Source of the DNA: an uncultured Verrucomicrobiota bacterium
GTDB lineage: Bacteria > Verrucomicrobiota > Verrucomicrobiia > Limisphaerales > UBA9464
Reading direction: 5' to 3'
DNA: 64,000 nucleotides
Assembly: GCA_903907995.1 (NCBI GenBank)
Contig: CAIVQH010000008.1
Coordinates: 7,220-71,219 of the forward strand
In this document: positions 10,239 through 36,145 of the stretch, one piece after another
Position numbering within the stretch: the first letter of the stretch is position 1
How the letters are laid out: each line of letters opens with the position of its first letter
Position numbers and translations under genes: made by a program
The notes under the pieces: generated by a model
Told to the model about the DNA's origin: nothing
What the model saw: only the letters and a program-made list of their open reading frames with translations
The model's database searches: none

Positions 10239-11567
10239 TTACGGCGCATCCACTACGACGCGATAGAAGCCGGTCGGAGGACGAAGGGGACCGGCGAACG
10301 GACTCAGGCCCGTCCACTCGGCAATCCCCTTCTCGGGATAAGTGAGCTGGCCCGCTGCGGGGTTCCATGATTTCAGATCAGCGCTGGTTTCGATGCGGTA
10401 GGTGCGGCTCGGGGCAATCGGGAAGCGGAGCCCCGCGTTCCCATCCGCATCAAAGCGGGAGCTGAGCACCCGCAGGACGCTGGCAGCATTCGTCGGATCG
10501 GTGCCGGCCAGGAATTCTGCGCGGTTGGACTGCCCATCGCCATCCGCGTCGCCGTCGGCGGTGGCGCTCAGATCACCGAACCAGAAGCGCTCCCAATCAT
10601 CGGGCAGGCCATCCTGATCGGTGTCGGCATCCGTGATCACCGTGCCGGTCAGTTCCAGGCGCGGGGAGTCGTAGACCAGATTTTTGCGGGTGGCCCACTG
10701 GGGATAATTGCCAACTCCGCCCCCGCCGGTGCCGCCCGGAGTGATCTGCACGGCGGGTGAAAGTGAATTGACCACCAGCCGTAGCTTGCCCTGGTCGAGG
10801 GCCTGTTGCAGGTAGCCCACGACCAGCGGATCGGTCAGGTCCACGTCGAACGTGAACTTGCTGTCGTCCGGCACGAGTTCGCCGGGCGCGGCATTCGTCG
10901 TCTGCCCGATGGCCCACGGCCTGGCCTCAAAGGGCGCGTTCGTCCACGCGGCGTTCTGCTGGCCGACATTGTTGCTCACGTCCAAGGGCTGTCCGTCGGG
11001 CCCGAACATCACCGGAAAGGCGTTGCGGGTGGCGATGGAGATCGTGTCGCCGGCAACCGGCCCCAGCGGACCATACGAACTGGTCTCGGTATAGGTCGTC
11101 GCCGTGAAACCGCCGCGAAACGCCGCACCGTACAGCTCCACCGGCCGCCCCGCATCGGTGTCAGGCACGTAACCGGGCTGGTTCGTCATGTAGGTGACGT
11201 AGCTGTCGTAGGTCGGGTCGTACACAAAGGCCTGATCCGCCGTGATGGTCAGCGTGAGGAGAACGCGCCGCAGCAGATAGTTCGCCGGATGACGGTTGGT
11301 GGTAACCAGCGTGTCGGTATCCCAGCCGATGAAGAACTGGGCGTCCCGGGTGTCAAAGCGCGGGTCGAAGGACGCGAAGGTGGGCGCCACGGGCCGGGTC
11401 GCCGGCTCGAAGTTGAACGGGTACATCCACCGGTCGAGGGTCGGCGTCGGGACATCCAATGTGAACTCGCCGGCACCCAGCCGGAGCGCCGCCAGCAACC
11501 AGACCAGCGGGAGCAACCAGCGTCCGGGCAGACACAACGCCCGGCGACCAACCAGAGAAAGAGCCAT
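10239..11567 (-). CDS. secreted protein with thrombospondin-type-3-like Asp-rich Ca-binding repeats and the shared [FY][FY]R C-terminal module
   Basis: Signal peptide. DTDQDGLPDDWERFWFGDLSATADGDADGDGQSNRAEFLAGTDPTN. Tail ...RTYRIETSADLKSWNP...GFYRVVVDAP. Confidence 0.75.
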   Translation of the reverse strand: MALSLVGRRALCLPGRWLLPLVWLLAALRLGAGEFTLDVPTPTLDRWMYPFNFEPATRPVAPTFASFDPRFDTRDAQFFIGWDTDTLVTTNRHPANYLLRRVLLTLTITADQAFVYDPTYDSYVTYMTNQPGYVPDTDAGRPVELYGAAFRGGFTATTYTETSSYGPLGPVAGDTISIATRNAFPVMFGPDGQPLDVSNNVGQQNAAWTNAPFEARPWAIGQTTNAAPGELVPDDSKFTFDVDLTDPLVVGYLQQALDQGKLRLVVNSLSPAVQITPGGTGGGGVGNYPQWATRKNLVYDSPRLELTGTVITDADTDQDGLPDDWERFWFGDLSATADGDADGDGQSNRAEFLAGTDPTNAASVLRVLSSRFDADGNAGLRFPIAPSRTYRIETSADLKSWNPAAGQLTYPEKGIAEWTGLSPFAGPLRPPTGFYRVVVDAP

Positions 11568-11586
11568 GTGGGGAGCCTAGCGCAAT

Positions 11587-12261
11587 TTACCGACGACGAC
11601 CACGCACGAAGAACAATCCCGCCAGCCCGGTCGCCAGCAGGGCGAGCGGAGCCGGTTCGGGCACCATGCGGACATCCAGAGTGGCCGAGTCAAAGCTCAC
11701 GCTTTCCGCCGCTGCTCCGAACGAGATCTTGAAGGCGGAAATATCCTTCCCGCTGAGATCCCACTCCCACTTCGAGGACACATAGGCTCCGCTGCCCGGC
11801 GTGCCGGGGTCGCCCACCAGCTGGCGGTCCAACTCCGAGCGGGTGGCGGTGAGGTCCGTCGCCCCGAAGGTCAGCTTGACCGAGTTGTAGTCGAGTTCGT
11901 TGCCGAAGGTGCGGGCCTGGAAGACCACCAGCCCCACCGGGGCCAGGCTCGAAAAGTTCACGTCGAAGGAACTCTTGGCCGCCATGTTGTAGATGTTGCC
12001 CGTGCTGGTGACGAAGGCATTGGGATCATGCTGGATCAGCCGGGCCGAGGCATTGCTGCCCGGCAGGTCGGGGCTGTTGCCCACACCATTGTCGGTGGCC
12101 ACGGTGAACTTTTCCCAGCCGGCCACCACGGAACCCGCCTCCCCACGGAAGAACGGAACCACAAAGCCATTGGTGCCTGCCTGTGCCGGGCTGACGACGG
12201 AGGTAACAGCGGTCGCAACGGCCAGCGCGGCCAGGGACCCGAACGATAACGAACGATTCAT
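11587..12261 (-). CDS. PEP-CTERM sorting domain protein
   Basis: Signal peptide. The C-terminus VPEPAPLALLATGLAGLFFVRGRRR has PEP, a TM helix and a basic tail. It lies 19 nt upstream of the 442-aa gene. Confidence 0.9.
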   Translation of the reverse strand: MNRSLSFGSLAALAVATAVTSVVSPAQAGTNGFVVPFFRGEAGSVVAGWEKFTVATDNGVGNSPDLPGSNASARLIQHDPNAFVTSTGNIYNMAAKSSFDVNFSSLAPVGLVVFQARTFGNELDYNSVKLTFGATDLTATRSELDRQLVGDPGTPGSGAYVSSKWEWDLSGKDISAFKISFGAAAESVSFDSATLDVRMVPEPAPLALLATGLAGLFFVRGRRR

Positions 12262-12638: not shown

Positions 12639-14065
12639 ATGAAGATGCGGTTACCCCTCATACTGTTCGCCGCCTTGTCCCTGCTGTTGGCGGGCACGAG
12701 CGTTGACGCCGAGGGCTTCCAGCCCACCGGGTCCATGAAGCAGGCCCGGCTGTTTCACACCGCAACCCTTCTGAACGACGGCCGCGTGCTGGTCACTGGC
12801 GGCATCGCTCCGACCTTCGACCCGCCCCCCCACCGCAGCCCCCGTTTCAAACCCTGACCAGTGTCGAGCTCTACGATCCGGCAACCGGTACCTGGTCGGA
12901 GGGCGCTCCCTTGGCCGAACCTCGCTGCTGCCATACCGCCACGCTCCTGCCCAATGGTGAGGTGCTGGTCGTCGGCGGAGCTTCGATCGGCGTCTTCCTT
13001 TTTGACTTCGCTCTCTTTGCCGCCGACGGATTGACTTCCGCTGAGATCTACAACCCCACCCGCAATGACTGGCGGGCGGTGGAACCGATGAAGATTGGCC
13101 ATGCCTGGCATTCGGCGACGCTCCTGCCCGACGGCCGGGTGCTGATCGCCGGCGGAGACGATGACTACAGTGAGTTTGACGGTCACCCAGAGTTGTATCC
13201 CTTTGAAGCCGAACTCTTTGATCCCGTGCAGGATTCGTGGAGCCCAGCCGGCCCATTTTGCACTTACACATTTTTCCAGAACCAAACCGGACGGTTTGGC
13301 CATGGTACCCTTCTGTTGCCGGATCACCGGGTGCTCGTGGCTGGGGGACGCGAGCTAGTCCCTAATCCTTGGGGCTCAGTCGGAATCGATTTGGAGAACA
13401 CCGAACTGTTCCGGCCAGGAACCGCCACCTGGAGACCAGCCGCCACGATGGCCACCGCCTGCTTTCGTCCCGTGCTGCACCTTTTGGACGACGGCACGGT
13501 GCTGTTGGCCGACTGGTACCCTTATTTCAGCATTGCTGCACGGTATGACCCGGTGCTGGATCTGTGGACCTCTGCTCCGGCCTCCGCCCAGGTACACGTG
13601 TCAGGGTGTGGAGTAAGGCTGGCTGACGGACGCTTGCTCGTGGCTGGCGGCCTTGTCGGCAGTGAGATCGCCGACGCCAGCAACCCACCGATCGTCTCCT
13701 GCGAGGTCTTCTCCCCGCTGACCCGCCAGTGGAACCCGGCTGGCCCCATGAAGACCGGCCGCGCCAACGGCACCCTCACCCGCCTGCAAGATGGCCGCAT
13801 CCTCGCCACTGGCGGAAGCACCGAACCGACCGCCGAACTGTTCGTGCCCGACCCCAAACCACGGCTCAGTGTCCGTTGGACCGGCGGTCAGCCCGCCCTG
13901 CTGCTGGAGGATACGGCCGCTCAGCCGACCGTGATCGAGTACAAGGAGAGCCTCGACAGCACCGCGTGGTCGGTCATCACCACCTTTCCCCATCCCGACG
14001 CCACCCAGACCGTCTCCGGCCTCCCCGCCGCCGCCCGCTTCTTCCGGGCCCGCCGGACGGATTGA
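12639..14065 (+). pseudogene. Kelch-repeat beta-propeller secreted protein, copy 1, frame broken near a C7 tract
   Basis: The frame starting at ATG 12639 (MKMRLPLILFAALSLLLAGTSVDAEGFQPTGSMKQARLFHTATLLNDGRVLVTGG...) stops at 12855-12857. The rest (VELYDPATGTWSEGAPLAEPRCCHTATLLPNGE... to 14065) is in another frame. It is colinear with intact copy 2. Confidence 0.8.
12825..12831 (+). repeat. C7 homopolymer at the Kelch copy-1 frameshift
   Basis: Reading gac ccg ccc ccc c|ac, one extra C would give ...DPPPPQPPFQTLTSVELYDPATGTW. That rejoins the downstream frame and matches the spacing in copy 2. Confidence 0.75.
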
Positions 14066-14105: not shown

Positions 14106-15533
14106 ATGAAGTTACCACCCCGCCTCCTCCTGTTCGCCGCCGTCTCCCTGCTGCTGGCCGGCCTGCGCCTCGCTGCGGAGGGCTTCCAGCCCACCGGGTC
14201 GATGAAGGCGGCCCGGCTGTTTCACACCGCAACCCTGCTGAACGACGGCCGGGTGCTGGTCACGGGCGGAGCTGATCCGTTGTCACTGAAATTGTTCGGT
14301 GGAGACTATGGATTTTCCTCAATGGCCAGCGCCGAGATTTACGACCCCGCTTCCGGCACCTGGTCGGAGGCCGCCTCCATGACCGAGCCCCGGGGTGGCC
14401 ACACCGCCACGCTCCTGCCCAACGGCGAGGTGCTGGTTGCCGGCGGAGCTTCGCCGGGGCCCTATCTGTCTGAATCCGGTCTTGCGAACTTTTCGTCAGT
14501 GACTTCCGCGGCAATCTACAACCCCGCCCGAAACGACTGGCGCGCCGTGGACCCGGTGAAAATTGCACATGTCTTTCACTCAGCGACGCTCCTGCCCGAC
14601 GGCCGGGTGCTGATCGCCGGCGGGGATTTCGATTATAATGGGTTCTATGGAAAACCAGAGCTGTTTTCCTATGAAACCGAATATTTCGACCCCGCCCGCG
14701 AGGCCTGGAGCCCAGGCGGTCCATTTTCCACCTATACGTTTTTCCCGAACCAAACCGGACGGTTTGGCCATGGTGCGCTCCTGCTGCCCGATCACCGGCT
14801 GCTCGTGGTTGGCGGGCGCGAGGTGGTCCCTCATCCTTGGGGCTCAGTCGCAATCGATTTTGGAAACACCGAACTGTTCCGGCCAGGAACCGGCACGTGG
14901 AAGCCAGCCGCCACAATGGCCACCGCCTGCTTTCGTCCCGTGCTGCACCTTTTGAACGACGGCACCATGCTGCTGGCCGCCTGGTACACTTATTTCAGTA
15001 TCGCTGCACGGTATGACCCGGTACTGGATCGCTGGTCCTCTGCTCCGGCCTCCGCCCAGGTACACGTGTCAGGGTGTGGAGTAAGCCTGGCTGATGGACG
15101 CTTGCTCGTGGCTGGCGGCCTTGTCGGCAGTGAGATCGCCGACGCCAGCAACCCACCGATCGTCTCCTGCGAGATCTTCTCCCCGCTGACCCGCCAGTGG
15201 AACCCGGCTGGCCCCATGAAGACCGGCCGCGCCAACGGCACCCTCACCCGCCTGCAAGATGGCCGCGTCCTCGCCGCCGGCGGGAGCACCGAACCGACGG
15301 CCGAACTCTTCATGCCCGACCCCAAACCACGGCTCAGTGTCCGTTGGACCGGCGATCAGCCCACCCTGCTGCTGGAGGATACGGCCGCTCAGCCGACCGT
15401 GATCGAGTACAAGGAGGACCTTGGCACTGCTGCGTGGTCGGTCATCACCACCTTTCCCCATCCCGACGCCACCCAGACCGTCTCTGGCCTCCCCGCCGCC
15501 GCCCGCTTCTTCCGGGCCCGCCGGACGAATTGA
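14106..15533 (+). CDS. Kelch-repeat beta-propeller secreted protein, copy 2 (intact), with the [FY][FY]R C-terminal module
   Basis: Signal peptide. Repeated ...HTATLLPNGEVLVAGG / HSATLLPDGRVLIAGG / GHGALLLPDHRLLVVGG blades. Tail ...VIEYKEDLGTAAWSV...ARFFRARRTN. Confidence 0.85.
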   Translation: MKLPPRLLLFAAVSLLLAGLRLAAEGFQPTGSMKAARLFHTATLLNDGRVLVTGGADPLSLKLFGGDYGFSSMASAEIYDPASGTWSEAASMTEPRGGHTATLLPNGEVLVAGGASPGPYLSESGLANFSSVTSAAIYNPARNDWRAVDPVKIAHVFHSATLLPDGRVLIAGGDFDYNGFYGKPELFSYETEYFDPAREAWSPGGPFSTYTFFPNQTGRFGHGALLLPDHRLLVVGGREVVPHPWGSVAIDFGNTELFRPGTGTWKPAATMATACFRPVLHLLNDGTMLLAAWYTYFSIAARYDPVLDRWSSAPASAQVHVSGCGVSLADGRLLVAGGLVGSEIADASNPPIVSCEIFSPLTRQWNPAGPMKTGRANGTLTRLQDGRVLAAGGSTEPTAELFMPDPKPRLSVRWTGDQPTLLLEDTAAQPTVIEYKEDLGTAAWSVITTFPHPDATQTVSGLPAAARFFRARRTN

Positions 15534-16021: not shown

Positions 16022-18064
16022 TCATAGCGGTCGAAGGCGGTAGAATCGGGCCGGCGAATTCGTTGATTGCGGGTCGTGAAAGTCGGCGGTGATTGCCGGT
16101 GAGTTCGTCTGGATGGTGATCCACACCGGCAGGCCCAGATCGATGCAGGCTTCGATGACCACCGGCTGGCTGGCCTTCCCGAAAGGGGTGAACCCGAACT
16201 CGTTGGCCCCAGTGCCGAAATCATTGGCGCCGCTGACGGCACCAAGTTCCCGGAGCATGGCCGGCTGATCCCCGAAAGTGGCCTCCCAGCCGGTGGATTC
16301 CGGGAGAAAATAAGCGGTGACCAAAGGAGAGCTGTCGAAAATCCCGTTCCCGATCTCGGGCGCATTCCCCCGGAAATAGACCCCGGTCAGGCCGGGACAC
16401 TGCTCGAACGCTCCATCCGCGATTTCCGTGAGACTCGCGGGCAGCACGATCTCGGAAAGCGCGGAACATCCGCGAAAGGCCCCTTCCCCGATGAGACTCA
16501 AGCCATCGGATACAACGACCCGTCGCAAGCCCGCGCAGCCGGCGAAGGCTGCGCGCCCAATGTTCGTGACGCCTGGCGGAATGGTGATGCGCGGCAGTCG
16601 CACGCAGGAATTGAAGAGGTCATCCGAAATTGAGGTCAGCGACGACGGGAGCGTGACCGAGCGGAGTTGGATGCACTCAAGAAAAGCCGCCTCGCCCAGG
16701 TCGGTGACGCTGTCCGGAAGCGAGACGGCCGTCAGGCGACCGCAACTGGCGAAAGCGTTGGCACCAATGTTCGTGACGCCCGGAGGGAAGGAGATCGTGG
16801 TCAGGCCGTAGCAGTCGCCAAAGGCGAAAGCGCCGACGCTCCCGACCTGCTGGCCCAAGTGTACCGTTCCCAGGTTGGTGCAGGCCCAGAACGCGGCATC
16901 GCCGACCAGCGTGACGCTGTCCGGAATGGTAAGACTGACCAAGCCGATGCAATCGCCGAAGGCGGCCACGCCAATGCTGGTGAGGCCATCTGGGAGCGGC
17001 GCATTGACCAGACTCGAACAGCCGCTAAAGGCTTCATCACCAATGAGGCGTAGCTGGGACGGCGTGCCGAAGGAGACAACCGCCAGCCGGCTGCAGTCCG
17101 CAAACGCGTCTGCTTCAATGGTGGTGAGGCCTCGGGGCAGGTTGACCCGGGCCAAAACAAAGCAGTCGCGAAAGGTCTCCGCGGCAATCGTGGTGATCTT
17201 TTCGGGCACGGTGATCTCGCCCAGATCCGTGCACCGCAAAAATGCCTGCTGGCCAATGCTGAGAAGGCCGTCAGGCAGGTTGATCGAGGCGAGGTTGGAG
17301 CAATCCGCGAAGGCCGCCTCGCCGATGCTGAGCAGGCCGGCGGGCAGCGAAAGCTTCATGAGGCCCGAGCAGTTCTGAAAGAGGGCCGCGGGAATCTCCG
17401 TCACTTTCGGAGGAAGAGTAAACTCGGTCAGGGCGGCACACCCCTCGAATGCATGGTCACCCAAGGTGGTCAGGCCGTTCGGAAGGTCCAGGATCGGAAG
17501 GCTGAAGCAGCCGGAAAATGCCTGAGGCCCGAGGTTGGTCACCCCGGCCGGGATAACGATCTGGGTGAGACTCTCGCAGTCAATGAATGCCGAATCTCCA
17601 ATGCGGGTCAGGGAGTCAGGCAGGATCACCTGGGGCATGTCCACACAGCCCTGAAAGGCCGCATCGCCAATCCCGGTCACCGGCAGGCCATTGAAAGTGG
17701 CAGGAATGATGACAGGAACGTTGGTCGGCGTGACCTGGATCAGAGTGACGGAGAGGGAGTCCTGATTGGTGGCATACGCCAACTGGGCACGACCCGTGAT
17801 TGGGAGAAAAATCAGGGCAGCGAAGAGCCAAAGCCACAAAGCCCTTCCCACGCCAAAGGATGCGCCAAGGTTTGCCGCGCTTCGAGTAAGGTGGGTTGGG
17901 ATCATCTGGTGTATCGGTTGGAGGTTTCGGCGGTCACGCACAACGCAAGCTCCCGCCGTGGAAACCGCATCAGGTGACAGTCCATCAAGCATTGTGGCAC
18001 AGCCGGCCGACGACAATGAAAATGGCCGGTGAGCCAGGGGTTTCACGGGCCGCGGCTTCGGCAT
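16022..18064 (-). CDS. BspA-type leucine-rich repeat surface protein
   Basis: About 20 repeats of the form L.SIGD.AF..C..L..I.LP. Tail ...ARFYRLRPL. The likely true start is the ATG at 17905 (MIPTHLTRSAANLGASFGVGRALWLWLFAALIFLPITGRAQ, signal peptide). Confidence 0.85.
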   Translation of the reverse strand: MPKPRPVKPLAHRPFSLSSAGCATMLDGLSPDAVSTAGACVVRDRRNLQPIHQMIPTHLTRSAANLGASFGVGRALWLWLFAALIFLPITGRAQLAYATNQDSLSVTLIQVTPTNVPVIIPATFNGLPVTGIGDAAFQGCVDMPQVILPDSLTRIGDSAFIDCESLTQIVIPAGVTNLGPQAFSGCFSLPILDLPNGLTTLGDHAFEGCAALTEFTLPPKVTEIPAALFQNCSGLMKLSLPAGLLSIGEAAFADCSNLASINLPDGLLSIGQQAFLRCTDLGEITVPEKITTIAAETFRDCFVLARVNLPRGLTTIEADAFADCSRLAVVSFGTPSQLRLIGDEAFSGCSSLVNAPLPDGLTSIGVAAFGDCIGLVSLTIPDSVTLVGDAAFWACTNLGTVHLGQQVGSVGAFAFGDCYGLTTISFPPGVTNIGANAFASCGRLTAVSLPDSVTDLGEAAFLECIQLRSVTLPSSLTSISDDLFNSCVRLPRITIPPGVTNIGRAAFAGCAGLRRVVVSDGLSLIGEGAFRGCSALSEIVLPASLTEIADGAFEQCPGLTGVYFRGNAPEIGNGIFDSSPLVTAYFLPESTGWEATFGDQPAMLRELGAVSGANDFGTGANEFGFTPFGKASQPVVIEACIDLGLPVWITIQTNSPAITADFHDPQSTNSPARFYRLRPL

Positions 18065-18110: not shown

Positions 18111-19055
18111 ATGATCCCCATGAAATCACCCATCCCCATCGCTTTATCAGGCAAGTCGCCCGCCCGCCGTACGCTGCTGGTTTTGAGCTTCATCGCCCTT
18201 TCCTCGGTCTTCTCCGCCCAGGCTGCGCTCGACATGTTCATCAACTTCGGGTCGACCATCAAAGGCGAGTCACGCGACAAGGTCCAAGGCCCGAAGGGGG
18301 ATTGCGACATGCTGTCTTGGAATTGGGGCATGAGCCAGTCGGGCACGACCCATACCGGCGGAGGGGGCGGAGCCGGAAAGGCAAACTTCCAGGATATCAC
18401 CCTGACGAAATACGTGGACACCGCCAGCACGGACCTCATGACCGCGCTGGCCAAGGGTTCACACTTGGCGAAGGTGGTGTTGCTGACCCGTAAGGCGGGT
18501 GAAGGGCAGACGAAATACATCGAGATCACGCTGGAGGAAGTCATCGTGACGTCGCTGACGACCGGTGGCTCCGGCGGCCAGGACCGCCTCACCGAGCAGG
18601 TCAGCCTCAATTTCGCCAAGGTGAAGTACGACTACTACCCCGTGGATTCAAAGGGGACCGTCGGAACAGCCAAAACCTTTGCCTGGAACATTGCCGCGAA
18701 CACCATGGCGGCAAAGCCGGTGGAAGTGCAGGGAGAACCGGGTGCCGCAGCGACCGAGTCGGTCTTGCCGGCGAGCGACGCTTCCCTCCGGAATTTTGTG
18801 CATGCGGGCGCCGCTGACCAGCTGAAGGCCCACGAGGAGGTCCGCGCTGGCAAGCGCTTCCTCGCCGTCGAGGTCACCCGTCCGAAGAACACCACGGGCG
18901 TCGCCATCACCGCCCAGACCTCTGCCGACGCCCACACCTGGTCCTCGGATACGGTCGTCGAAGAGGTCGCCGAGGACGGCACCGACACCCAGACCACCCG
19001 CTACGTGATCCCCATCGACCAGGCCCAGAAATTCTTCCGCACCACGACCGAATAA
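18111..19055 (+). CDS. Hcp1-family (T6SS tube fold) domain protein with N-terminal signal peptide and C-terminal extension
   Basis: Residues 39-200 read ALDMFINFGSTIKGESRDK...DMLSWNWGMSQSGTTHTGGGGGAGKANFQDITLTKYVDTASTDLM...RKAGEGQTKYIEITLEEVIVTSLTTGGSGGQDRLTEQVSLNFAKVKYDY. This closely parallels P. aeruginosa Hcp1 as I remember it. It is preceded by KSPARRTLLVLSFIALSSVFSAQA and followed by about 115 aa ending ...HTWSS...QKFFRTTTE. Confidence 0.85.
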   Translation: MIPMKSPIPIALSGKSPARRTLLVLSFIALSSVFSAQAALDMFINFGSTIKGESRDKVQGPKGDCDMLSWNWGMSQSGTTHTGGGGGAGKANFQDITLTKYVDTASTDLMTALAKGSHLAKVVLLTRKAGEGQTKYIEITLEEVIVTSLTTGGSGGQDRLTEQVSLNFAKVKYDYYPVDSKGTVGTAKTFAWNIAANTMAAKPVEVQGEPGAAATESVLPASDASLRNFVHAGAADQLKAHEEVRAGKRFLAVEVTRPKNTTGVAITAQTSADAHTWSSDTVVEEVAEDGTDTQTTRYVIPIDQAQKFFRTTTE

Positions 19056-19942: not shown

Positions 19943-20887
19943 ATGAAGACACCATCATGCCTGTTGCTGCTGCTCGGTGCCATGACATGCACCCCCGGTC
20001 TCGCCGGACAGTTCGGAAGCTTCATTTATTCCGAGAGCGGTGGCAAAATCACCATTACCGGTCTGGTCAATTTTGGCACCGGTGCCACCGGGACCATTCC
20101 AGGCTCCATCAACGGCAAGCCGGTAACCGCTATCGGCGAGAGCGCCTTGGGCGGCTCGGTCTTTGAATCGGTCACCATCCCTAACAGCGTGACCACCATC
20201 GGGTATGGAGCGTTCAACGTTTCCTTTTACCTCAGTAGCCTCAATTTGGGTACGGGCGTGACCCGGATTGATGACAACGCATTTTATCTGTGCTCAAGAC
20301 TGCAGAATTTGACTCTCCCCAGCAGTCTCACAAGCGTGGGAAATTTTGCCTTCGCCAGCTGCGCTTTGAAACACGTCACGATTCCCGCCAAGCTAACCCA
20401 CATCGGAAACCTGCCGTTTGCCTACTGCAATCTGCTGACTTCCTTGTCCGTGGACCCGCTGAACCCGGTCTTCAGCGGCGACGGCATCTCCTGCTTCGAC
20501 AAGGCTAAAACCACCCTTGTCCTTTGTCCCAGCGGCTATGACGGCACGTATGTGGTTCCCGGGACGGTCACCATCATCGGAGCCAACGCGTTCGCCGGCA
20601 ACACGGTGCTGGACGATGTGGTCATCACTCCCAAAGTGACCCAGATTCAGGACGGCGCCTTTTTCTACTGCCAGCATCTAATGGGCATCCACGTGGACGC
20701 GAAGAATTCCATGTACTCCACGGTGGACGGGGTCTGTTTCGACAAGGGCGAGACAACCCTCGTCGCCTACCCGAACGGCAGGACCGGAAACTACGTCGTG
20801 CCCGACACCGTGACCATGATTGGCAACCAGGCATTTGCTGGTGCCAATCTGCTAAGGACCATTCAGCTTCCCGCACCCTCATCCTGA
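19943..20887 (+). CDS. BspA-type leucine-rich repeat protein (short paralog, probably C-terminally truncated)
   Basis: Signal peptide, LRR units (VTTIGYGAF, LTSVGNFAFASC, VTIIGANAFAG, VTMIGNQAFAG). Visibly lower GC. It starts 13 nt after the VTC gene. Confidence 0.8.
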   Translation: MKTPSCLLLLLGAMTCTPGLAGQFGSFIYSESGGKITITGLVNFGTGATGTIPGSINGKPVTAIGESALGGSVFESVTIPNSVTTIGYGAFNVSFYLSSLNLGTGVTRIDDNAFYLCSRLQNLTLPSSLTSVGNFAFASCALKHVTIPAKLTHIGNLPFAYCNLLTSLSVDPLNPVFSGDGISCFDKAKTTLVLCPSGYDGTYVVPGTVTIIGANAFAGNTVLDDVVITPKVTQIQDGAFFYCQHLMGIHVDAKNSMYSTVDGVCFDKGETTLVAYPNGRTGNYVVPDTVTMIGNQAFAGANLLRTIQLPAPSS

Positions 20888-21462: not shown

Positions 21463-21463
21463 G

Positions 21464-26552: not shown

Positions 26553-29500
26553 TCAGGGTGCCACGATGGCCCGGTAGAAACGCGGGGTGTTGTCGGTGGA
26601 GTTGGGGTCCGTAACCGTGAAGGTTCCCAGCTCGTTCAGAACGGTGCTGATCGGCGACCAACCCTTGAGGTTGCTGGAATACTGGATGACGTAAGACTGG
26701 TTGACTTGGCCTTGCACTTGAATCTTCGCGTTCCCACCCGTGAAGCCAAGGAACTTGACGACGGCTTTGGAGGTATCATCCGTCGGCGGGCGCAGGTGCA
26801 GCTGGACATTGTCCAGCCAGGCGGTGTCCTGGCCGCTGGAGCGGCCGGCATCCTTCACATAACGCCATTCAAAGTCGTTTGAACCTGCCGGTATGGCAAA
26901 GGTAAACGTGCTCCAATCGACCTCACCGGACCAGCGCTGAACCAGCGACCCGTTAAGATAGAACTCCAGATAGTCCCAGCCATTCTCCGAGCTGACCTTG
27001 TATTGGAACGCGCCCTGGCCGCCCAGAGAATCGCCCTGCAAGCTGAGTGAGCTGACCTGGCTGTCGCCGATCGTGCCGGCCTTGGCGGCAAAGGTGCCGC
27101 TTGCAACCGTGTTGCTTTGCACCGCCCAAGGAACGTCACCACCGGAAACCCACTTCACATGCGTAAGATCGCCGGTTTCGAAATCATCCGTGAAGGGGAT
27201 GGCGACGAAATTGGCCGTGAGAGTCATGTTGCTGCTGACCAGGAAGCTGAGCGGATTGTCAGTGCTGGTCACCGAACCGCTCCATCCGCCAAAACTGAAG
27301 TAGGTGTTGGCCGTCGCGGTAAGATTCACTGGCGCATTGCTGGCAAACAGTCCGCCAGCGGAACTCACCGTGCCACCTACGCCGGCATTGACGGTGAGCG
27401 TGAACAGCGTCGCCGGCGCGAACGAATACGTCAGCGACACTTGGCCAACGGCACCAGCGAACCCATCCACCGCGATGTGGACGGTCTGGCCGCTCTTGAT
27501 TGGCACGCTGGCCACGCTGAAGGAGGAACTCGGGTAGGCATCGTCATTTGATGCGAGCGTGGTCAGGCTGCTCACCTTGGACCCGCTGTACACACCCAAC
27601 AGGGTATCAATCACCGAATTGGTCGTGCTGAGGGTCAGAACCCCGTCGGAGGTCGCGGTGTAGTTCCACCAGATTGAATGCCCGCCCAGGCTGCCACCAT
27701 GCAGCGGTTCGCCGAATTCACGGCTGGCCTGGGTATTGTCACCGGTGACGGTACCTCCGGCCCCTGAAAGCGGCGTCGCATTCACAAACTGGTCATTGAC
27801 CGCCGAAGGCAGACGCAGCGAAATCGTCAGGCTTGCAGGCGAAGACACATTCTCCGCATTGTCCTGCGCCACCGCCGTCACCGTGTTCAGCCCTGGTGAC
27901 AACGAAATCGTTGCGGACCAGGTGTTGCCCGCCAGTGTCGCACTCGAGCCGTTCACCAACACCTGCCGGACACCGGTCGGGTACGGATCAGGATCGCTGA
28001 CAATCCCACTGACAGTGATGACATTTGAGCTCGCGATGAAGCCATTGGCCGGAGCAGTAAAGGAAATCTGCGGGGCAACGACATCGGGGATGCCGTTGGG
28101 CGTCAGGCGCAGCAGGGCCTGTCCTTTTCCGGAAGTCCCCACGCCGATGACGGCAATGCGATAGGTTGTTCCCTTCGTGGCGTTGAAAGTCAGCGAAGTG
28201 CTTGATTTCGGCAGGACCGGCACGGCACTGCTGACGAGGTTCAAATTGAGGAAACTGGTGCCGGTATATACCGCAAGGGCTACGGGCGTCGCCGTGCCAA
28301 AGGTGTCCAGCAGTACCGGCGAGGAGACATTCGGCGTCCAGGCAAACCAGAGCGAGCCGACACCGTCGGGCGCTCCGGAGACTACTGGCTCGCCCGGTTC
28401 AAACGTGCTCAGGGTGGTGTCCGTACTGTCCACGCCGGCGATCAGTTCCCCATCGGTGGCGATCTTCCGCGGTGCGGCAAACCGGTCGTTGGCAGGACGA
28501 GCGACCACGGTGTAATTGACCACGTTGGTTGCGCCGGTTTTCCCCGGTGCGGTCGCGCTGATGACAAACTGATAGCTGCCGACATCCTGCGGGTTGAAGT
28601 TGGCGCTGTAGGTGCCGTCCAAGGCGACGGCATCGGGCATGACACCGTCGTTCGTGAATGACAGCGATACATTGGTCAGCCAGGGTCCGTTGATGATCGC
28701 CGTGACCGTCGCATTCGTCAGCGGGAAGAGATCGGTCACCGTGACGAATATCGGCGTCGTGTTGGTGACCAACACCTTCGAACCGTCCGGGGGAGCCACC
28801 ACCAAGGGATCGATGATGTTATCAATGTCACCATTGACTGCCCGGAAGGCGTTGACCCGGCCGCCGGTGATGGTTTGCCCCTTCAGGGCTGCAGTTGTTA
28901 CTGCGGAATTCAGCAGTCGCAGCCGGAGCTCGGGCATGCTGGCCGTCGGATGCTTGGCGAGCACAAGCGCGGCCACACCCGTCACATGGGGACAGGCCAT
29001 GCTGGTTCCCTCGAAGACATCGTAGGCGGTGTCCGATGTGCTGATTGAGGAAAAGATTTCAACGCCCGGAGCCCCTAGATGGACCGTCCTCAGGCCGTAG
29101 TTTGAAAAACTCGCCAGATGGTCTTTCCGGTCGATGGCGGCGACGACAACCATGTTGTCGAGCGCATAGCTGGCGGGCGCCACGAAGGTGATCCCGTTGT
29201 CATCACCAACCCCGTCGGCCCCGCCATTTCCTGCCGCGGCGACGAAAAGATGCCCCGAATCACGGGCGAAGGCGAGCGCGTCGGCAAGGGCCGGATCCGC
29301 GCCGCTTCCGCCCCAACTGTTGTTCGAAATGGGGACCTTCATGCGCACCGCATATTGGATGCACTCGATCGCATCCGAGGTGAATCCGGAGCCGTCCGAT
29401 CCGAGAAACTTCAGCCCCATCAGCGAAACCTGCCACGACACACCGACATGAGGCTGTCCATTGTTGGCCACCGCCCCGATCGTGCCGGACACATGGGTGC

Positions 29501-30246: not shown

Positions 30247-33156
30247 TCAGGGTTCGTAGGTCACGCGGTAATAGACCACCGGCTGGTCGGGATTCACTGG
30301 ATCGCTGGCAACCAGCGGGGCGGAGTCGGTGGAAGTGTTGCTCACCGTGGTCACCAGCACCCAAGTTGTGGGATTGAGCGAGCTGGTCTTTTCCACGCGA
30401 TAACTCGTCTGCGGGGCACCGGTCCAACTGATCTGGGTCGTGAGCGGCGGCACATTCACCACCGCAGTGGTGATCGGCACCCCACCGAACGGTTCCGGAT
30501 CAAACGCATTCGCGATGCCGTCGCTGTCCGAATCAATGACAGTGCTGTTGAAGACGTTGCGGTTCACCCGCACCGTTCTTCCATCGGCCAGGGCCACATC
30601 GATGCCGCTGAACGGTCCGGCAAAATTCCGGACCCATTTCAGATGGCCGTTGAGGGCGCCATCCAGCTGTTCGACCGGGATGTTCGAATCCGCAAAGTAG
30701 ATCGTGAAGTCGTCCGCGATCTGTATGAAGGAACTCATGTCCGCCGCAATCGGCGAGCTGAATTCAAGGAAGTCCACATACAGCGCTTTCCCGCCGTTGA
30801 TGCCGGCAATGTTGATCAGGCCGTTGATGTCGGAAATCAGGCTCAGCCGGCCGATCGCGGCATTGTTGGCGAAGCCTTCTTTGGTCGCTCCGAGATCCGC
30901 CGCCGGCCAAAGAATGTCGGCGGAACCATCCGTAGTCACACTGGCCTCAAAGGTGGTTCCCAACATGGTGGCGGTCGTGGGTTTGCTGCCCAGGGTGAAG
31001 CCTTGGACGCTCGCGATGCGGTTCGGGGCCCCCGCACCGGCATCGAGGAACGAATTGGCAATCTGCAACTGGATGCTGCGACCGGCGGTCAGGGTTGCTC
31101 CCTGCATCTTCAGATCAGAGGCCGTCAGATAAAGGTCGCCAAACGCAGTGATCTTGCTTCCGGTGCCGTCGAGCTGCACCGAGGTGGCGACAATGTCAAT
31201 CGGCCCGTTAAAGGTCTGGATTGTCCCTGCGTTGTAGAGGGTGGTCGCACCGATCGACATGGACAGCGACTCATTGGTGCCGGTGTTCACGAACGTATCA
31301 TACGGCGCCCGGTCCCGGCCAAAATTGGCCACTCCCTGAACCGCGAGGATGCCGTTGTTGGTCAGCCGGCGCAGTTCCGGAGCCGAGGCCGCATTCCAGA
31401 CCCCGCTGCCGATGTTGCCCACAAACAGTGTGCCATTGATTGTCAGGGAATCCGAATGAAGCTCGATCGTGCTGTCAATCAGCAGCTTGTCGGCAACCGT
31501 CGTGTTTGTCGCCACCGCCTTGAGTCCGCTCACCGACGTGACACCGTCATCGCTGCTGAGATCGGCGCTCACGAGCAGGACGTGATACATGGTCGTGAAG
31601 TTGGTGGTGACAACGTCCGTGTTGGTGGCTCCGGTGTTGGGATCCACGGTGTTGTTTGTCGTCAGCTGGTCGAACCCGTTCGTCCAGATTGCACTCCAGG
31701 CTTTGATGTCTCCGGAGGCGAAACGGATGATGGGCGCTCCTGCCAGGCCCTGGAGGATCAGATTGCCGTTGGTCGCTCCCAAATCGTAGAAGAGGTTGGG
31801 CACATCAACCACCAGGTTGGCGGAGCCGGTAAGGTTTTTGGTCTTGATGAAGGCCGCCCCGCCTGCACGTATCCGCGTGTTGTTCAGGTTCAGATTGTCG
31901 GCATTGATCTCCACCCGGCCGGCGTAATTCGTGAGGGCCACGTTGGCGCCATTCCCGGGAAGCTGAAGATTTGAGTTAACAAACGCCTCATAGGCAGAGA
32001 AAAACGGGGTTACCGTCGCATTGCTGAAGTTCATCCCGTTCGTGAACTGGGGCGACACGAACTGGGTAAATATGTTGCTCGAAATCAACGAATTTCCGGG
32101 GGCGCCACTCAAGCCGAAGCGCTCAATCCGGAAATTGGCCGGACGGAACGTGCCCAGCGTCAGCGAATTTGTGAGCAGGAAGAGATTGGTGTCGGCCGCA
32201 ACCAGCAGATTCGTGGCGGAGGCGAGTCGGTCAGTGAGAAAAATGGATCTCGATACGCGCTGCCGGGTGATCACGTTTGTATCAAACCCGCTGAACTTCG
32301 TGATGAAGGTATGAAACGGGTTGCCCTGTTCGGAACTGCGCCCGAAACTGACATCCACCGACACATTGGTCCTCGTGTTGGCCACAAAGACCACCTCGAT
32401 GATCTGGTTCGTAGGCCCCTTTGGATCCCCGAAGGAGTTTGTGTTCACGAACACCAGAGGAGCCGTCAGTGACATGCCGTCCGGAAACTGGCCAGGATCG
32501 ACGATATAGTCCGGCGTGGTCACCTGGACGCCGTTCGGCGCGTACTTGAAAAACTGGGTCGGATCCAGCGTGACGATGTTCGTGCCCCAGCTGATGTCGG
32601 TGACTGACTGCATCGGGGTGAAGTTTGTCCGGGTTTGGCTTCCGCCGCTCGCGTTCAGCCCATCGGAGAGTGTCCCCATGTCCAGCTTGCTGTTGGCCAG
32701 GTCAACATTCTGGCCGTTCAGCCGGATCAGGCCTTCAAGTGAGCCCACCAAATTGCCGCGGTTGACCAGGTTGGTGGCGCTGAGGGAAAGGAACGGCTCC
32801 CCGTCAATGAGGGCTCCCTGCAGGTTGTTGATCACGCTGGCAAAGCCCCGCGTGCCGGTCGTGCCATCGGTGTGATCCAGACGAAACCCGCCCAATGAGA
32901 AATAATTACCGGCACCGTCCGAGAACCCAAATGCCCCCATTGTGCCCGTATTGGTGAAATACAGGGTGTTTTGGGTGTCATAGGGCCGGCTTAGCCCATT
33001 GAAATTCATCGTGCCGCGGTTCAGGAACACACGGGCGTCAACCTGTACCGGGTCGCTTATCGAATCATCGTTGACGTACAGGTCCGCCGTCCCCCCAAAA
33101 CAGGCAAGCCCCGCCGCGAGCCAGCCGAATACTGCAAAAATGAGCCGTGTCTTCAT
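30247..33156 (-). CDS. large secreted beta-helix-like (adhesin-like) repeat protein, 969 aa, with the [FY][FY]R C-terminal module
   Basis: Signal peptide MKTRLIFAVFGWLAAGLACFGG. Irregular Asn/Gly/Thr-rich repeats (LNLNNTRIRAGGAAFIKTKNLTGSANLVV...). Tail ...TSYRVEKTSSLNPTTW...VVYYRVTYEP. Confidence 0.7.
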   Translation of the reverse strand: MKTRLIFAVFGWLAAGLACFGGTADLYVNDDSISDPVQVDARVFLNRGTMNFNGLSRPYDTQNTLYFTNTGTMGAFGFSDGAGNYFSLGGFRLDHTDGTTGTRGFASVINNLQGALIDGEPFLSLSATNLVNRGNLVGSLEGLIRLNGQNVDLANSKLDMGTLSDGLNASGGSQTRTNFTPMQSVTDISWGTNIVTLDPTQFFKYAPNGVQVTTPDYIVDPGQFPDGMSLTAPLVFVNTNSFGDPKGPTNQIIEVVFVANTRTNVSVDVSFGRSSEQGNPFHTFITKFSGFDTNVITRQRVSRSIFLTDRLASATNLLVAADTNLFLLTNSLTLGTFRPANFRIERFGLSGAPGNSLISSNIFTQFVSPQFTNGMNFSNATVTPFFSAYEAFVNSNLQLPGNGANVALTNYAGRVEINADNLNLNNTRIRAGGAAFIKTKNLTGSANLVVDVPNLFYDLGATNGNLILQGLAGAPIIRFASGDIKAWSAIWTNGFDQLTTNNTVDPNTGATNTDVVTTNFTTMYHVLLVSADLSSDDGVTSVSGLKAVATNTTVADKLLIDSTIELHSDSLTINGTLFVGNIGSGVWNAASAPELRRLTNNGILAVQGVANFGRDRAPYDTFVNTGTNESLSMSIGATTLYNAGTIQTFNGPIDIVATSVQLDGTGSKITAFGDLYLTASDLKMQGATLTAGRSIQLQIANSFLDAGAGAPNRIASVQGFTLGSKPTTATMLGTTFEASVTTDGSADILWPAADLGATKEGFANNAAIGRLSLISDINGLINIAGINGGKALYVDFLEFSSPIAADMSSFIQIADDFTIYFADSNIPVEQLDGALNGHLKWVRNFAGPFSGIDVALADGRTVRVNRNVFNSTVIDSDSDGIANAFDPEPFGGVPITTAVVNVPPLTTQISWTGAPQTSYRVEKTSSLNPTTWVLVTTVSNTSTDSAPLVASDPVNPDQPVVYYRVTYEP

Positions 33157-33179
33157 GAAATTTTTGGGCGTGGCCAGGA

Positions 33180-34631: not shown

Positions 34632-34639
34632 AATCAGAT

Positions 34640-36145
34640 TCAGGGAAGGCTGATGATGCGGAAAAATCCGCCGGACTGGCTAATCGGTAGAGTGACGGAA
34701 CTGGTCGTTCCCAAAAGGGTCTGAGCCGCCGTGGAGGTTTCCCATGTCGACATGTTGTCGGAGTGCTGCACCTGGTAAGAGACTCCGCTCGCGGTCGGCC
34801 AGCTCAGCGTTACTGCGGAGAGTTTGCCGGATGCGTCCATCACTTTGGCCACGGAGCATTTGACCGCGACCGCACTGGCCGGGCGGGCAAATGTCCGGCT
34901 CACCAGATCGAAGCCGCTGGCCATCGACTTGAATGACGTCCAAGCGGCGAAAAAGCGAGAAGTCCCATCTGAAGCGACCGCCGGGTCCTTCTGCTGGCTG
35001 ATCACCGTCTGGTTCAGCCCGAACTCATCGTCGGTGGGCTCACCGCTGAAGGAGAGGTAACGCCCGAAGACACCTTCACGATAGCCATCCTGGTTCAGAC
35101 TGGTCCACACGGCCAAAATGACATCACCGGCGAGCGACAGCCTGGGCTCAATCTGGCTGTAAGGAAGATAGTAGTTCACGCGAACGGCAGGCTTGGCGGC
35201 CACAATGCCGTCGTCGAAGGCGTTGGCGTAGATGTCCCAGCTGTTCTGGGGCGCCGCCAGGTCGAATTCGGACCAGGCAGCAACGAAACCGCCCGTGGGC
35301 AGCCCGACCAAGGACGGGGACGAGCAGACATTCGTGCCGGTATTCAGGCGCATCTCGCCAGTCAGCGGGGATCCTGCCGCGCTGAAAGTCCGGGCGTACA
35401 CGTCGACGGAGTTTTGAAAACGCTGGTTTTCCGAAACCCAGCCCACCACAAAACCACCGCTGGCCAAGGCCGCCAGCGTTGACGCCCGCTGATTGTAGGC
35501 GGTGGTAAGGTTCGCCTGAGTCTGCGTGCCGATCTTCTCACCGGTGCTGCTGAACCTTTGCAGCTGCACGCCGAAAAGGCTCCCGTCGCTGCCAAAGCTG
35601 GACCAGGCGATCACCACGCTGTTGTCTGACAGGCAGACGACTGCCGGGCTCGTGTTCTGCACCGAACCGGCCGGGGCGACTTCCACGTCCTCACCGTTGA
35701 ACACCGGAGTCGAGCTGCTTCCTGACTTCAAGAAGCGGGCGAAAATCCCCTGTTTTCCCAAGGGTCCGCCGCGCCAGACGAACACGGCCCCACCATCTGC
35801 CAGCAGGCTGACCTTGGGCGCCTCATGGATTCCGTTGGTGTGGGAATTGATCCAGAAAGGCGGCAAGGCCCCCGTGAGATTGCGACCAATGCGGCGGGCA
35901 CGGATCGCTGCCCCGTCCCCGTTGCCGGAAGCGTCCTGCCACACGATGTAGCCCCCCTCGCTGCTGATGGCGATGGCTGGTGCCGTCTGATCCGCTCCCA
36001 GACTCCCGATGATCGGCGATTCACCGCCCTCGGGCTGGAAACCGGAGGCCGCACCCAGGTGAAAAACCGGCAGCAGGAACAGGCTGCCAATGAGTCGGCA
36101 GCACGCCTTTTGCAGCTTCAGTATGTTCAAACTCCGAAATGGCAT
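34640..36145 (-). CDS. secreted 7-bladed beta-propeller-like repeat protein, 501 aa, with the [FY][FY]R C-terminal module
   Basis: Seven repeats of about 45-50 aa of the form ..P.va.L..GGfVv.W.S...dgs...vf.r.f...G (e.g. ALASGGFVVGWVSENQ, LPTGGFVAAWSEFD, DVILAVWTSLNQDGYREGVFGRY). Tail ...VSYQVQHSDNMSTW...GGFFRIISLP. Confidence 0.7.
   Translation of the reverse strand: MPFRSLNILKLQKACCRLIGSLFLLPVFHLGAASGFQPEGGESPIIGSLGADQTAPAIAISSEGGYIVWQDASGNGDGAAIRARRIGRNLTGALPPFWINSHTNGIHEAPKVSLLADGGAVFVWRGGPLGKQGIFARFLKSGSSSTPVFNGEDVEVAPAGSVQNTSPAVVCLSDNSVVIAWSSFGSDGSLFGVQLQRFSSTGEKIGTQTQANLTTAYNQRASTLAALASGGFVVGWVSENQRFQNSVDVYARTFSAAGSPLTGEMRLNTGTNVCSSPSLVGLPTGGFVAAWSEFDLAAPQNSWDIYANAFDDGIVAAKPAVRVNYYLPYSQIEPRLSLAGDVILAVWTSLNQDGYREGVFGRYLSFSGEPTDDEFGLNQTVISQQKDPAVASDGTSRFFAAWTSFKSMASGFDLVSRTFARPASAVAVKCSVAKVMDASGKLSAVTLSWPTASGVSYQVQHSDNMSTWETSTAAQTLLGTTSSVTLPISQSGGFFRIISLP

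What the first reader, a model, noticed from the sequence alone, without database searches (positions are those of the whole stretch)
10239..36145. Recurrent ~60-75 aa C-terminal module ending in [FY][FY]R on unrelated secreted proteins (candidate sorting or anchoring signal)
At least seven signal-peptide proteins with different N-terminal folds end the same way. First comes a strand motif Y-x-[IV]-[EQ]-x-[ST]-x-[DN]-[LM]-x(1-3)-W. Then, 20-35 aa later, comes [FY][FY]R plus 3-6 residues and the stop. The 442-aa Ca-binding protein has TYRIETSADLKSW...GFYRVVVDAP (about 10239-10450). Both Kelch copies have VIEYKESLDSTAW...RFFRARRTD (about 13853-14065 and 15321-15533). The Hcp-like protein has ITAQTSADAHTW...KFFRTTTE (about 18840-19055). 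The S8 protease has SYVIQYSSNLKGW...RFYRAIVAP (about 26553-26770). The beta-helix protein has SYRVEKTSSLNPTTW...VYYRVTYEP (about 30247-30460). The propeller has SYQVQHSDNMSTW...GFFRIISLP (about 34640-34850). The 680-aa LRR protein ends ...ARFYRLRPL (16022-16170). An out-of-frame relic ...RFYRIRFP lies at 20887-20964. Strict C-terminal placement on diverse cargo is the pattern of sorting tags such as the T9SS CTD, PEP-CTERM and LPXTG. A genuine PEP-CTERM protein sits right next to one of these genes (11587-12261), so this tail is a distinct signal. I know of no named family for it.
Basis: seen in the sequence. Interest (0 to 1): 0.8.

Follow-up and report, generated by a model that had tools for sequence, protein, structure and literature searches.

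The report
Unnamed C-terminal end-domain of Verrucomicrobiota proteins
Many unrelated exported proteins of Verrucomicrobiota bacteria end in the same small, unnamed 70-residue beta-sandwich domain, which probably holds or sorts them at the cell surface, though this is untested and the domain also occurs as internal tandem repeats.

Summary
Seven ORFs in the window, plus one out-of-frame relic, end in the same roughly 70-aa module. An HMM built only from outside sequences recognises them (E 2e-20 to 1.5e-7). The Hcp-like tail is not recognised directly.

The module folds as a six-stranded Ig/FN3-like sandwich (AlphaFold2 pLDDT 92.7). No Pfam-A or NCBIfam model covers it.

A profile of the window tails finds 2,384 protein clusters. 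In a genome sample chosen without regard to position, all 87 true hits lie in Verrucomicrobiota (including Kiritimatiellia and Lentisphaeria), unlabelled MAGs, or one MAG labelled Proteobacteria. In 77 of 97 copies the chain stops 3-8 residues after the invariant Arg of RFYR. Cargo is diverse and mostly carries Sec signal peptides.

The domain is not strictly terminal. Many proteins carry tandem arrays of 2-10 copies, and a few giant proteins have internal copies only. Internal and terminal copies share one consensus. Homologues gain and lose the tail, and no sorter gene recurs next to it.

So it is a new lineage-specific end-domain. I think it most likely works as a non-covalent surface-retention or binding module rather than a cleaved T9SS-type tag. 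The sorting-signal reading is only partly supported.

The parts
26553..26765 (-). Tail of the 1223-aa S8 protease (ORF 26553-30224), ending ...SYVIQYSSNLKGW...RFYRAIVAP*
   Evidence: Independent HMM E 2e-20. AlphaFold2 model has pLDDT 92.7 and six strands. The orthologue in L057 keeps RFYRAIVAP.
30247..30459 (-).
   Evidence: Independent HMM E 3e-10. The orthologue in L057 ends RFYRVTFEP.
34640..34852 (-). This is the first gene downstream of the secretin.
   Evidence: Independent HMM E 2.2e-9. Leave-one-out E 1.5e-4.
10239..10451 (-). Tail of the 442-aa TSP3-repeat protein (ORF 10239-11567), ending ...TYRIETSADLKSW...GFYRVVVDAP*
   Evidence: Independent HMM E 3.7e-10. A TSP3_bac repeat lies just upstream.
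13853..14065 (+). Tail of Kelch copy 1 (ORF 12911-14065). The gene is split by a frameshift near 12812-12845.
   Evidence: Independent HMM E 1.5e-7. Frameshift shown.
15321..15533 (+). Tail of Kelch copy 2 (ORF 14106-15533, 475 aa)
   Evidence: Independent HMM E 6.8e-8.
16022..16234 (-). Tail of the 680-aa BspA-type LRR protein (ORF 16022-18064), of the LRR-specific subtype, ending ...ARFYRLRPL*
   Evidence: Independent HMM E 1.7e-11. The same LRR_5 + tail architecture occurs in a Lentisphaeraceae MAG (L063), aligned through residue 678 of 680. The subtype is visible in alignment A4.
20878..20964 (+). Out-of-frame relic behind LRR314 (19943-20887). It is the last third of an LRR-subtype tail: ...SVTISDPAWTKYPTRFYRIRFP*
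   Evidence: Independent HMM E 1.2e-5, model positions 67-93 only. Sequence read.
18843..19055 (+). C-terminus of the Sec-signal Hcp-like protein (ORF 18111-19055), ending ...HTW...KFFRTTTE*. At best a divergent member.
   Evidence: Independent HMM gives only 4.3 bits; leave-one-out E 0.13. Hcp homologues of 252-279 aa carry tails scoring 20-31 bits.

Best explanation
The tails are copies of one unnamed domain specific to Verrucomicrobiota. It is about 65-70 residues long and forms six beta-strands in an Ig/FN3-like sandwich. Its consensus is G..Y.[IV][QE].S.[DN]L..W ... G...F.D ... RFYR[VAL]xxx(P).

Shown: it is added to the extreme C-terminus of Sec-exported proteins with many different N-terminal folds. 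It occurs once, or as a Pro-linked tandem array that usually runs to the end of the protein.

Inferred: it is a folded binding module, not a cleavable linear tag. After Sec export it attaches its carrier non-covalently to a shared ligand. That ligand is most likely a glycan or protein of the producer's own outer surface or matrix, which would keep enzymes, adhesins and repeat proteins at the cell surface. Tandem arrays would add avidity or act as scaffolds. The ligand, and any role in crossing the outer membrane, are unknown.
For: One homologous family:
- Leave-one-out and independent HMMs recognise the window tails.
- 2,384 protein clusters match at E<=1e-3.
- Trp is invariant and the Arg of FYR is 96-99% conserved across 275 non-redundant copies.

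Fold: AlphaFold2 pLDDT 92.7, six strands, with Ig/FN3 neighbours at TM 0.56-0.67.

C-terminal rule:
- 134 of 149 top hits end with the domain.
- In a genome sample picked by a DNA pattern blind to position, 77 of 97 copies have the Arg 3-8 residues before the stop, 62 of them at 4-5 residues.

Lineage: all 87 HMM-positive loci are Verrucomicrobiota (including Kiritimatiellia and Lentisphaeria), unlabelled MAGs, or one MAG labelled Proteobacteria (L045). None of the 33 loci from other phyla is positive.

Exported, diverse cargo:
- Cargo domains include S8, Kelch, LRR_5, TSP3, beta-helix, LamG+Ig, Calx-beta, Big_7, MBG and DUF6851.
- 35 of 51 complete ORFs show a clear signal peptide by a crude test.

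Points favouring a binding module over a cleaved tag:
- Tandem arrays and internal copies exist.
- Terminal and internal copies share one consensus.
- There is weak but repeated similarity to the central strands of discoidin/CBM32 sugar-binding modules: PDB E 1.3e-4, and 11 of 61 members sub-threshold to F5_F8_type_C_2.
- Some proteins consist only of a signal peptide, an FN3 domain and an array.
Against: - Nothing here shows binding, localisation or processing. The mechanism is inference from architecture.
- The discoidin similarity covers about 48 residues and never reaches a curated cut-off. Structural matches to CBM32 are poor (TM 0.27-0.42).
- The extreme C-terminal bias is just as compatible with a secretion signal.
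- Three tail genes sit in an apparent operon directly behind a secretin in this window, which hints at a link to secretion.
- Tail gain and loss between homologues, and ordinary evolutionary rates, would also fit a dispensable accessory domain.
Confidence: 0.4

Rival explanations
1. It is a true sorting signal of the T9SS-CTD kind. After Sec export, a dedicated outer-membrane translocon (possibly the PilQ/Amuc_1098-type secretin system) recognises the folded C-terminal domain. The domain is then removed or covalently attached by a sorting enzyme.
For: - The terminal position is extreme and the distance to the stop codon is fixed.
- The domain is phylum-restricted.
- Cargo is diverse and carries signal peptides.
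- There are many copies per genome region: 8 in 26 kb here, and 5 loci from one MAG among the first 120 hits.
- prop501, bhelix969 and S8 lie in one apparent operon directly downstream of the secretin, with gaps of 8-119 bp.
Against: - Tandem arrays of 2-10 copies and internal-only arrays exist. Known sorting tags occur once per protein.
- Terminal copies have no feature that internal copies lack.
- No recurrent neighbouring gene family was found at 86 other loci, and no homologue of this window's secretin or PilM.
- There is no sequence match to Por_Secre_tail/TIGR04183, and no T9SS CTD among the structural neighbours.
- p483, in the same operon, lacks the tail while its homologue elsewhere has it.
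Confidence: 0.2
2. It is an ordinary accessory domain, either a substrate-binding CBM-like module or a structural spacer. It has no role in localising the protein. It sits at the C-terminus mainly because domains are most easily gained and lost at gene ends.
For: - The fold is a generic Ig/FN3 sandwich.
- Arrays interleaved with other domains occur in giant adhesin-like proteins.
- There is weak similarity to discoidin/CBM32 and Fn3-like modules of glycanases.
- Homologues gain and lose the tail.
- Tails evolve at the same rate as their cargo.
Against: - About 80-90% terminal placement, with the chain ending 4-5 residues after the last strand, is far beyond what is usual for FN3, Big or CBM domains.
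- A spacer at the very end of a chain spaces nothing.
- The cargo is not mainly carbohydrate-active enzymes, so a shared external substrate is hard to picture.
Confidence: 0.3
3. It is a chance resemblance of short motifs in GC-rich ORFs, not a homologous domain.
For: Pairwise identity between the window tails is only 17-31%.
Against: - The independent HMM gives E-values down to 2e-20.
- Thousands of database matches share the same consensus.
- The fold prediction is confident.
- All 33 random DNA-pattern matches in other phyla are HMM-negative.
Confidence: 0.01

Closest known systems
T9SS C-terminal domain (Por_Secre_tail, PF18962 / TIGR04183) of Bacteroidota
   Same: - A beta-sandwich of about 70-100 aa at the extreme C-terminus of Sec-exported proteins with unrelated cargo.
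- Many carriers per genome.
- Restricted to one lineage.
- The machinery is not encoded next to the cargo.
   Different: - No sequence match and no T9SS CTD among the structural neighbours.
- Six predicted strands; T9SS CTDs have seven, from my own knowledge.
- Occurs in tandem arrays and internally.
- The host phylum is Verrucomicrobiota.
- Cleavage and lipid or LPS attachment are unknown here.
Bacterial pre-peptidase C-terminal domain (PPC, PF04151) on T2SS-secreted enzymes
   Same: - A small beta-sandwich at the C-terminal end of secreted proteases and other enzymes.
- Present as one or several copies.
- Thought to help secretion or binding.
- Found in organisms that use a secretin pathway.
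   Different: - No sequence match.
- PPC is widespread in Proteobacteria and other groups rather than specific to one phylum (from my own knowledge).
- Processing of the present domain has not been tested.
Repeat anchoring or assembly modules at protein ends (dockerin; SLH, CWB2 and choline-binding repeats)
   Same: - Terminal non-catalytic modules shared by unrelated extracellular proteins.
- Sometimes tandem.
- They work by non-covalent binding to a common cell-surface receptor.
   Different: - Different folds and sequences.
- Those systems belong to Gram-positive bacteria with known receptors. No receptor is known here.
F5/8 type C (discoidin, CBM32) and Fn3-like modules of glycanases
   Same: - The profile matches the central strands (..l.W....Y.iqvS.D...W..v) of the chitosan-binding discoidin modules 2rv9/4zxe at E 1.3e-4, and the Fn3-like protein 3mpc at E 0.005.
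- 11 of 61 members give sub-threshold hits to F5_F8_type_C_2.
   Different: - About half the length of a discoidin domain.
- No member reaches a Pfam cut-off.
- Structural superposition on CBM32 is poor (TM 0.27-0.42).
- The RFYR end strand is not part of the matches.

Membership tests
T9SS CTD (Por_Secre_tail PF18962 / TIGR04183) | Sequence match to the family models | tested here: not met
   The seven window tails give no hit even at E<=10 in NCBIfam or Pfam. None of the 61 members of A2 hits at E<=1.
T9SS CTD (Por_Secre_tail PF18962 / TIGR04183) | A beta-sandwich at the extreme C-terminus of Sec-exported proteins with diverse cargo | tested here: met
T9SS CTD (Por_Secre_tail PF18962 / TIGR04183) | A single copy per protein, never internal | tested here: not met
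   Arrays of 2-10 copies; 290 internal copies in 149 proteins.
T9SS CTD (Por_Secre_tail PF18962 / TIGR04183) | The host encodes T9SS machinery (PorV, Sov, PorU and others), and the CTD is cleaved and the cargo attached to A-LPS | not testable with these tools
   No whole genomes or proteomics were available. The hosts are Verrucomicrobiota.
PEP-CTERM / exosortase signal (PF07589) | PEP motif, then a transmembrane helix, then a basic cluster at the C-terminus | tested here: not met
   The tails have no hydrophobic helix and no PF07589 hit. The neighbouring ORF 11587-12261 does have one.
Fibronectin type III (PF00041) | Match to the fn3 model | tested here: not met
   No fn3 hit on any tail. True fn3 domains in the same proteins are detected separately.
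Fibronectin type III (PF00041) | FN3/Ig-like sandwich fold | tested here: inconclusive
   The best Foldseek neighbours are FN3/Ig domains at TM 0.56-0.67, but all have E>0.001. The model has six strands; classic FN3 has seven, from my own knowledge.
F5/8 type C / discoidin / CBM32 (PF00754, PF22633) | Match above the curated cut-off over the full domain of about 130 aa | tested here: not met
   Only partial, sub-threshold hits: 11 and 5 of 61 members, best E 0.006. The PDB profile hit covers 48 residues at E 1.3e-4.
Pre-peptidase C-terminal domain (PF04151) | Match to the PPC model | tested here: not met
   No hit.
Dockerin (PF00404) | Duplicated Ca-binding loop-helix motif; match to the model | tested here: not met
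   The model is essentially all-beta, with one 3-residue helical turn, and there is no Pfam hit.

The most novel reading that the evidence does not exclude
Verrucomicrobiota have their own counterpart of the T9SS C-terminal domain. On this reading the tail is a folded sorting domain shared across the phylum. It would direct hundreds of different Sec-exported proteins across or onto the outer membrane through machinery not yet identified, possibly the PilQ/Amuc_1098-type secretin apparatus that sits directly upstream of three tail genes in this window. That would define a new protein-sorting system.
Probability: 0.2. Interest if true: 0.85.

Novelty: new variant of a known kind. Interest (0 to 1): 0.6.

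Why it matters
How Verrucomicrobiota export their many large enzymes, adhesins and repeat proteins and keep them on the cell surface is largely unknown. This phylum includes Akkermansiaceae, abundant soil and freshwater Pedosphaerales/Limisphaerales, and marine polysaccharide degraders.

One unnamed domain that marks the end of thousands of such proteins gives a direct handle on the question. It can be used to predict the surface and secreted proteome from sequence. It is a bait for finding the receptor or machinery. It could also serve as a tag for displaying proteins on these bacteria.

Even if it proves to be only a binding module, it is a large domain family missing from Pfam-A and NCBIfam. 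Adding it would improve annotation of many 'hypothetical' proteins.

Tried and rejected
- **Word-indexed protein search with the eight window tails (A1):** no hits. With 61 domain copies (A2) it returned only short fragments named 'hypothetical protein'.
- **The search for related loci on genome contigs with alignments A2 and A3:** I replaced it with a degenerate DNA pattern for DL..W-(24-33 codons)-RFYR.
- **Named families:** Pfam-A and NCBIfam give nothing above threshold for the tails or for 61 further members. This rejects T9SS CTD, PPC, dockerin, fn3, PEP-CTERM and LPXTG as identities.
- **Structure search against PDB with two models:** only generic Ig/FN3 sandwiches, none with E<1e-3.
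- **Search for a co-located sorter:** I clustered all ORFs of at least 150 aa from the 86 positive loci. No non-tail family occurs in more than 5 loci. No homologue of this window's secretin, PilM, Amuc_1100-like or 266-aa proteins is present there.
- **Test for a special terminal copy:** terminal and internal copies have the same consensus.
- **Test for stronger constraint on the tail than on the cargo:** none found.
- **Literature:** three full-text searches and two papers checked, with no description of this module.


Full report

The window has 62.7% GC. One of its proteins (prop501) is found on a 204,861-bp metagenome contig of sample ERZ1426685, with the same neighbouring genes as the window.

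Pfam confirms that the N-terminal parts are unrelated. They include TSP3_bac, Kelch, LRR_5, T6SS_HCP and Peptidase_S8, and three proteins have no family at all.

I built leave-one-out HMMs from the window tails alone. Among 1,132 six-frame segments, the omitted tail ranked first for 5 of 7 groups, always at the exact C-terminus.

An HMM built from 272 copies found outside the window gives the following scores:

| Tail | E-value |
|---|---|
| S8 protease | 2e-20 |
| LRR680 | 1.7e-11 |
| beta-helix 969 | 3e-10 |
| Ca442 | 3.7e-10 |
| propeller 501 | 2.2e-9 |
| Kelch475 | 6.8e-8 |
| Kelch384 | 1.5e-7 |
| relic 20878-20964 (last third of the model only) | 1.2e-5 |

Nothing else in the 64 kb scores.

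The Hcp-like tail scores only 4 bits, so it is not confirmed directly. However, Hcp homologues of 252-279 aa elsewhere carry tails scoring 20-31 bits. These end FFRIETLSxP, with the Trp replaced by Phe. The Hcp tail may therefore be a divergent member.

Kelch384 is split by a frameshift. Its signal peptide lies in another frame.

**2. What is it?**

No Pfam-A or NCBIfam model matches the tails, even at E<=10. The same holds for ten high-scoring database proteins and for the 61 further members of alignment A2.

AlphaFold2, run with a 49-sequence alignment, gives a confident model with pLDDT 92.7. It has six beta-strands spanning about 67 residues. An earlier shallow-alignment model agrees.

Foldseek against the PDB finds only generic Ig/FN3 sandwiches, at TM 0.56-0.67. 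No match has E<1e-3, and no T9SS CTD appears.

A profile of 61 copies shows weak similarity to other solved structures. It matches the central strands of the discoidin/CBM32 chitosan-binding modules 2rv9 and 4zxe at E 1.3e-4 over 48 residues. It also matches an Fn3-like protein, 3mpc, at E 0.005. In addition, 11 of 61 members give sub-threshold hits to F5_F8_type_C_2. This may reflect a remote relationship to sugar-binding sandwiches. It does not establish membership.

**3. How widespread is it, and where in the protein does it sit?**

A profile of the eight window tails, searched against 1.84 billion representative proteins, finds 2,384 clusters at E<=1e-3.

The top 150 hits are dominated by tandem arrays of 2-10 copies. 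This is partly because scores add up over copies. In 134 of 149 of these proteins the last copy ends within 8 residues of the protein end. There are also 290 internal copies, and 241 of them keep the [FY][FY]R motif. About a tenth of the proteins are giant, with arrays interleaved among other domains and no terminal copy.

Terminal and internal copies have the same consensus:
- Trp is 100% conserved.
- The Arg of FYR is 96-99% conserved.
- Both share Y.[IV][QE].S.[DN]L..W, G...F.D and RFYR[VAL].

Internal copies are followed by Pro-rich linkers.

To get a sample that is not biased towards arrays or towards any position, I scanned one genome per GTDB species with a DNA pattern for DL..W-(24-33 codons)-RFYR. 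Of the first 120 loci:
- 87 are HMM-positive. One of these, L090, is weak (E 0.0035).
- All 87 are labelled Verrucomicrobiota, or are unlabelled MAGs, or in one case a MAG labelled Proteobacteria (L045). The labelled taxa include Verrucomicrobiae, Limisphaerales, Akkermansiaceae, Opitutales, Luteolibacter, Haloferula, Prosthecobacter, Kiritimatiellia, Victivallales and Lentisphaeraceae.
- The 33 loci from other phyla are all negative, so they are chance DNA matches.

In this sample 95 of 96 ORFs carry a single copy. In 77 of 97 copies the Arg lies 3-8 residues before the stop codon, and in 62 it lies at 4-5 residues. Another 12 lie at 9-19 residues, and 7 are internal.

The carriers include beta-helix, LamG+Ig, Calx-beta+Big_7, TSP3 and DUF6851 proteins, and several with no Pfam family. 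A crude hydrophobicity test finds signal peptides in 35 of 51 complete ORFs.

**4. Evidence bearing on mechanism**

For a role in localisation:
- The terminal bias is extreme and the end distance is fixed.
- The domain is restricted to one lineage.
- Cargo is exported and diverse.
- Local density is high: eight copies in 26 kb here, and five loci from one MAG among 120 hits.
- In this window the genes appear to form one operon, with intergenic gaps of 8-119 bp: pilM, an Amuc_1100-like gene, a 266-aa gene, the secretin, then prop501, p483, bhelix969 and S8.

Against a cleaved tag that occurs once per protein:
- Tandem and internal copies exist.
- Terminal copies have no feature of their own.
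- p483 lacks the tail, whereas its homologue in L008 (33% identity, E 4e-44) has one.
- Tails diverge at about the same rate as their cargo: S8 55% vs 58%, bhelix 33% vs 44%, LRR680 50% vs 37%, Kelch paralogues 90% vs 80%.
- No non-tail gene family recurs in more than 5 of 86 positive loci.
- None of those loci holds a homologue of this window's secretin or PilM.

**5. Most likely mechanism (inference)**

I think the domain is a folded end module that binds a shared ligand. The ligand is probably a component of the producer's own surface or matrix. Binding would retain otherwise unrelated exported proteins at the cell surface. Arrays would add avidity or act as scaffolds. I give this about 0.4.

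The rivals are:
- a plain accessory or substrate-binding domain with no role in localisation (0.3);
- a true T9SS-CTD-like sorting signal with unknown machinery (0.2).

Chance resemblance is excluded.

From the alternation of residues along a beta-strand, the Phe and the invariant Arg of RFYR would face away from the Tyr and Val. They may therefore form a conserved exposed patch. I could not check this on coordinates.

**6. Comparison with known systems**

In architecture and logic the closest systems are the T9SS CTD and the pre-peptidase C-terminal (PPC) domain. In proposed action it is closest to terminal anchoring repeats such as dockerin and SLH. It is a member of none of them. The sequence models are not met, and the single-copy rule of sorting tags is violated (see the membership table).

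**7. Novelty and limits**

I found no name for the domain in Pfam-A (2025 copy) or NCBIfam release 20. Three full-text literature searches and two papers also gave nothing. Other resources, such as InterPro and CDD, could not be checked.

Limits of this work:
- Loci are 8-kb blocks, so many carriers are cut at their N-terminus.
- The signal-peptide test is crude.
- No whole genome could be scanned, so copies per genome and co-distribution with any machinery remain untested.

Noticed in passing
window 12483-14065: Kelch copy 1 is interrupted by a frameshift. The signal peptide and first ~58 residues are in one frame (about 12636-12812) and the rest follows in another from about 12845. It is 80% identical to the intact copy 2 (14106-15533). 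It is either a pseudogene or an assembly indel.
   Followed up: yes
window 19943-20964: The BspA-type LRR protein LRR314 stops at 20887. The last third of an LRR-subtype tail follows in another frame (20878-20964). This is a decayed or frameshifted tail gene.
   Followed up: partly
window 18111-19055; proteins P0233-P0352: This is an Hcp-like protein (T6SS_HCP, E 1e-33) with a Sec signal peptide and a 130-aa C-terminal extension. Of 105 homologues that start with Met, 67 have hydrophobic N-termini, and several carry the tail domain. Exported Hcp-like proteins are unexpected, because T6SS Hcp is normally made without a signal peptide.
   Followed up: partly
window 26553-42739 (minus strand): This is an apparent operon: PilM-like (621 aa), Amuc_1100-like (333 aa), a 266-aa protein, a 917-aa secretin with a TPR and long poly-Gly tracts, then four exported proteins (prop501, p483, bhelix969, S8). 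Three of those four carry the tail. The bhelix-S8 pair is conserved in L057.
   Followed up: partly
window 33180-34631 and L008:6197-7795: p483 has no tail, but its homologue in a Verrucomicrobiales MAG (33% identity, E 4e-44) ends in a canonical one. This is tail gain or loss within a single protein family.
   Followed up: yes
window 10239-11567; L025, L089, L113, L066: A TSP3-like Ca-binding motif (DxDxDG...EF..GTDP....S) very often lies directly before the tail. The two seem to travel together as one unit.
   Followed up: no
window 16022-18064; L063; P0207, P0211, P0214, P0216, P0222: BspA-type LRR proteins carry their own tail subtype, preceded by YYLPGTTGWG...LW. The architecture is shared between Verrucomicrobiae and a Lentisphaeraceae MAG.
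   Followed up: partly
window 9326-10207 and 44309-45148: Two prepilin-type (N_methyl) pseudopilin-like proteins flank the region. One of them has a weak DUF1559 match.
   Followed up: no
window 22604-24223: A CotH kinase-family protein (PF08757, E 1e-35) with a hydrophobic, signal-peptide-like N-terminus (judged by eye) sits among housekeeping genes.
   Followed up: no
window 1498-2489: Two small overlapping ORFs look by eye like an AbrB/VapB-type antitoxin and a PIN-domain VapC toxin. I did not check this with any tool.
   Followed up: no
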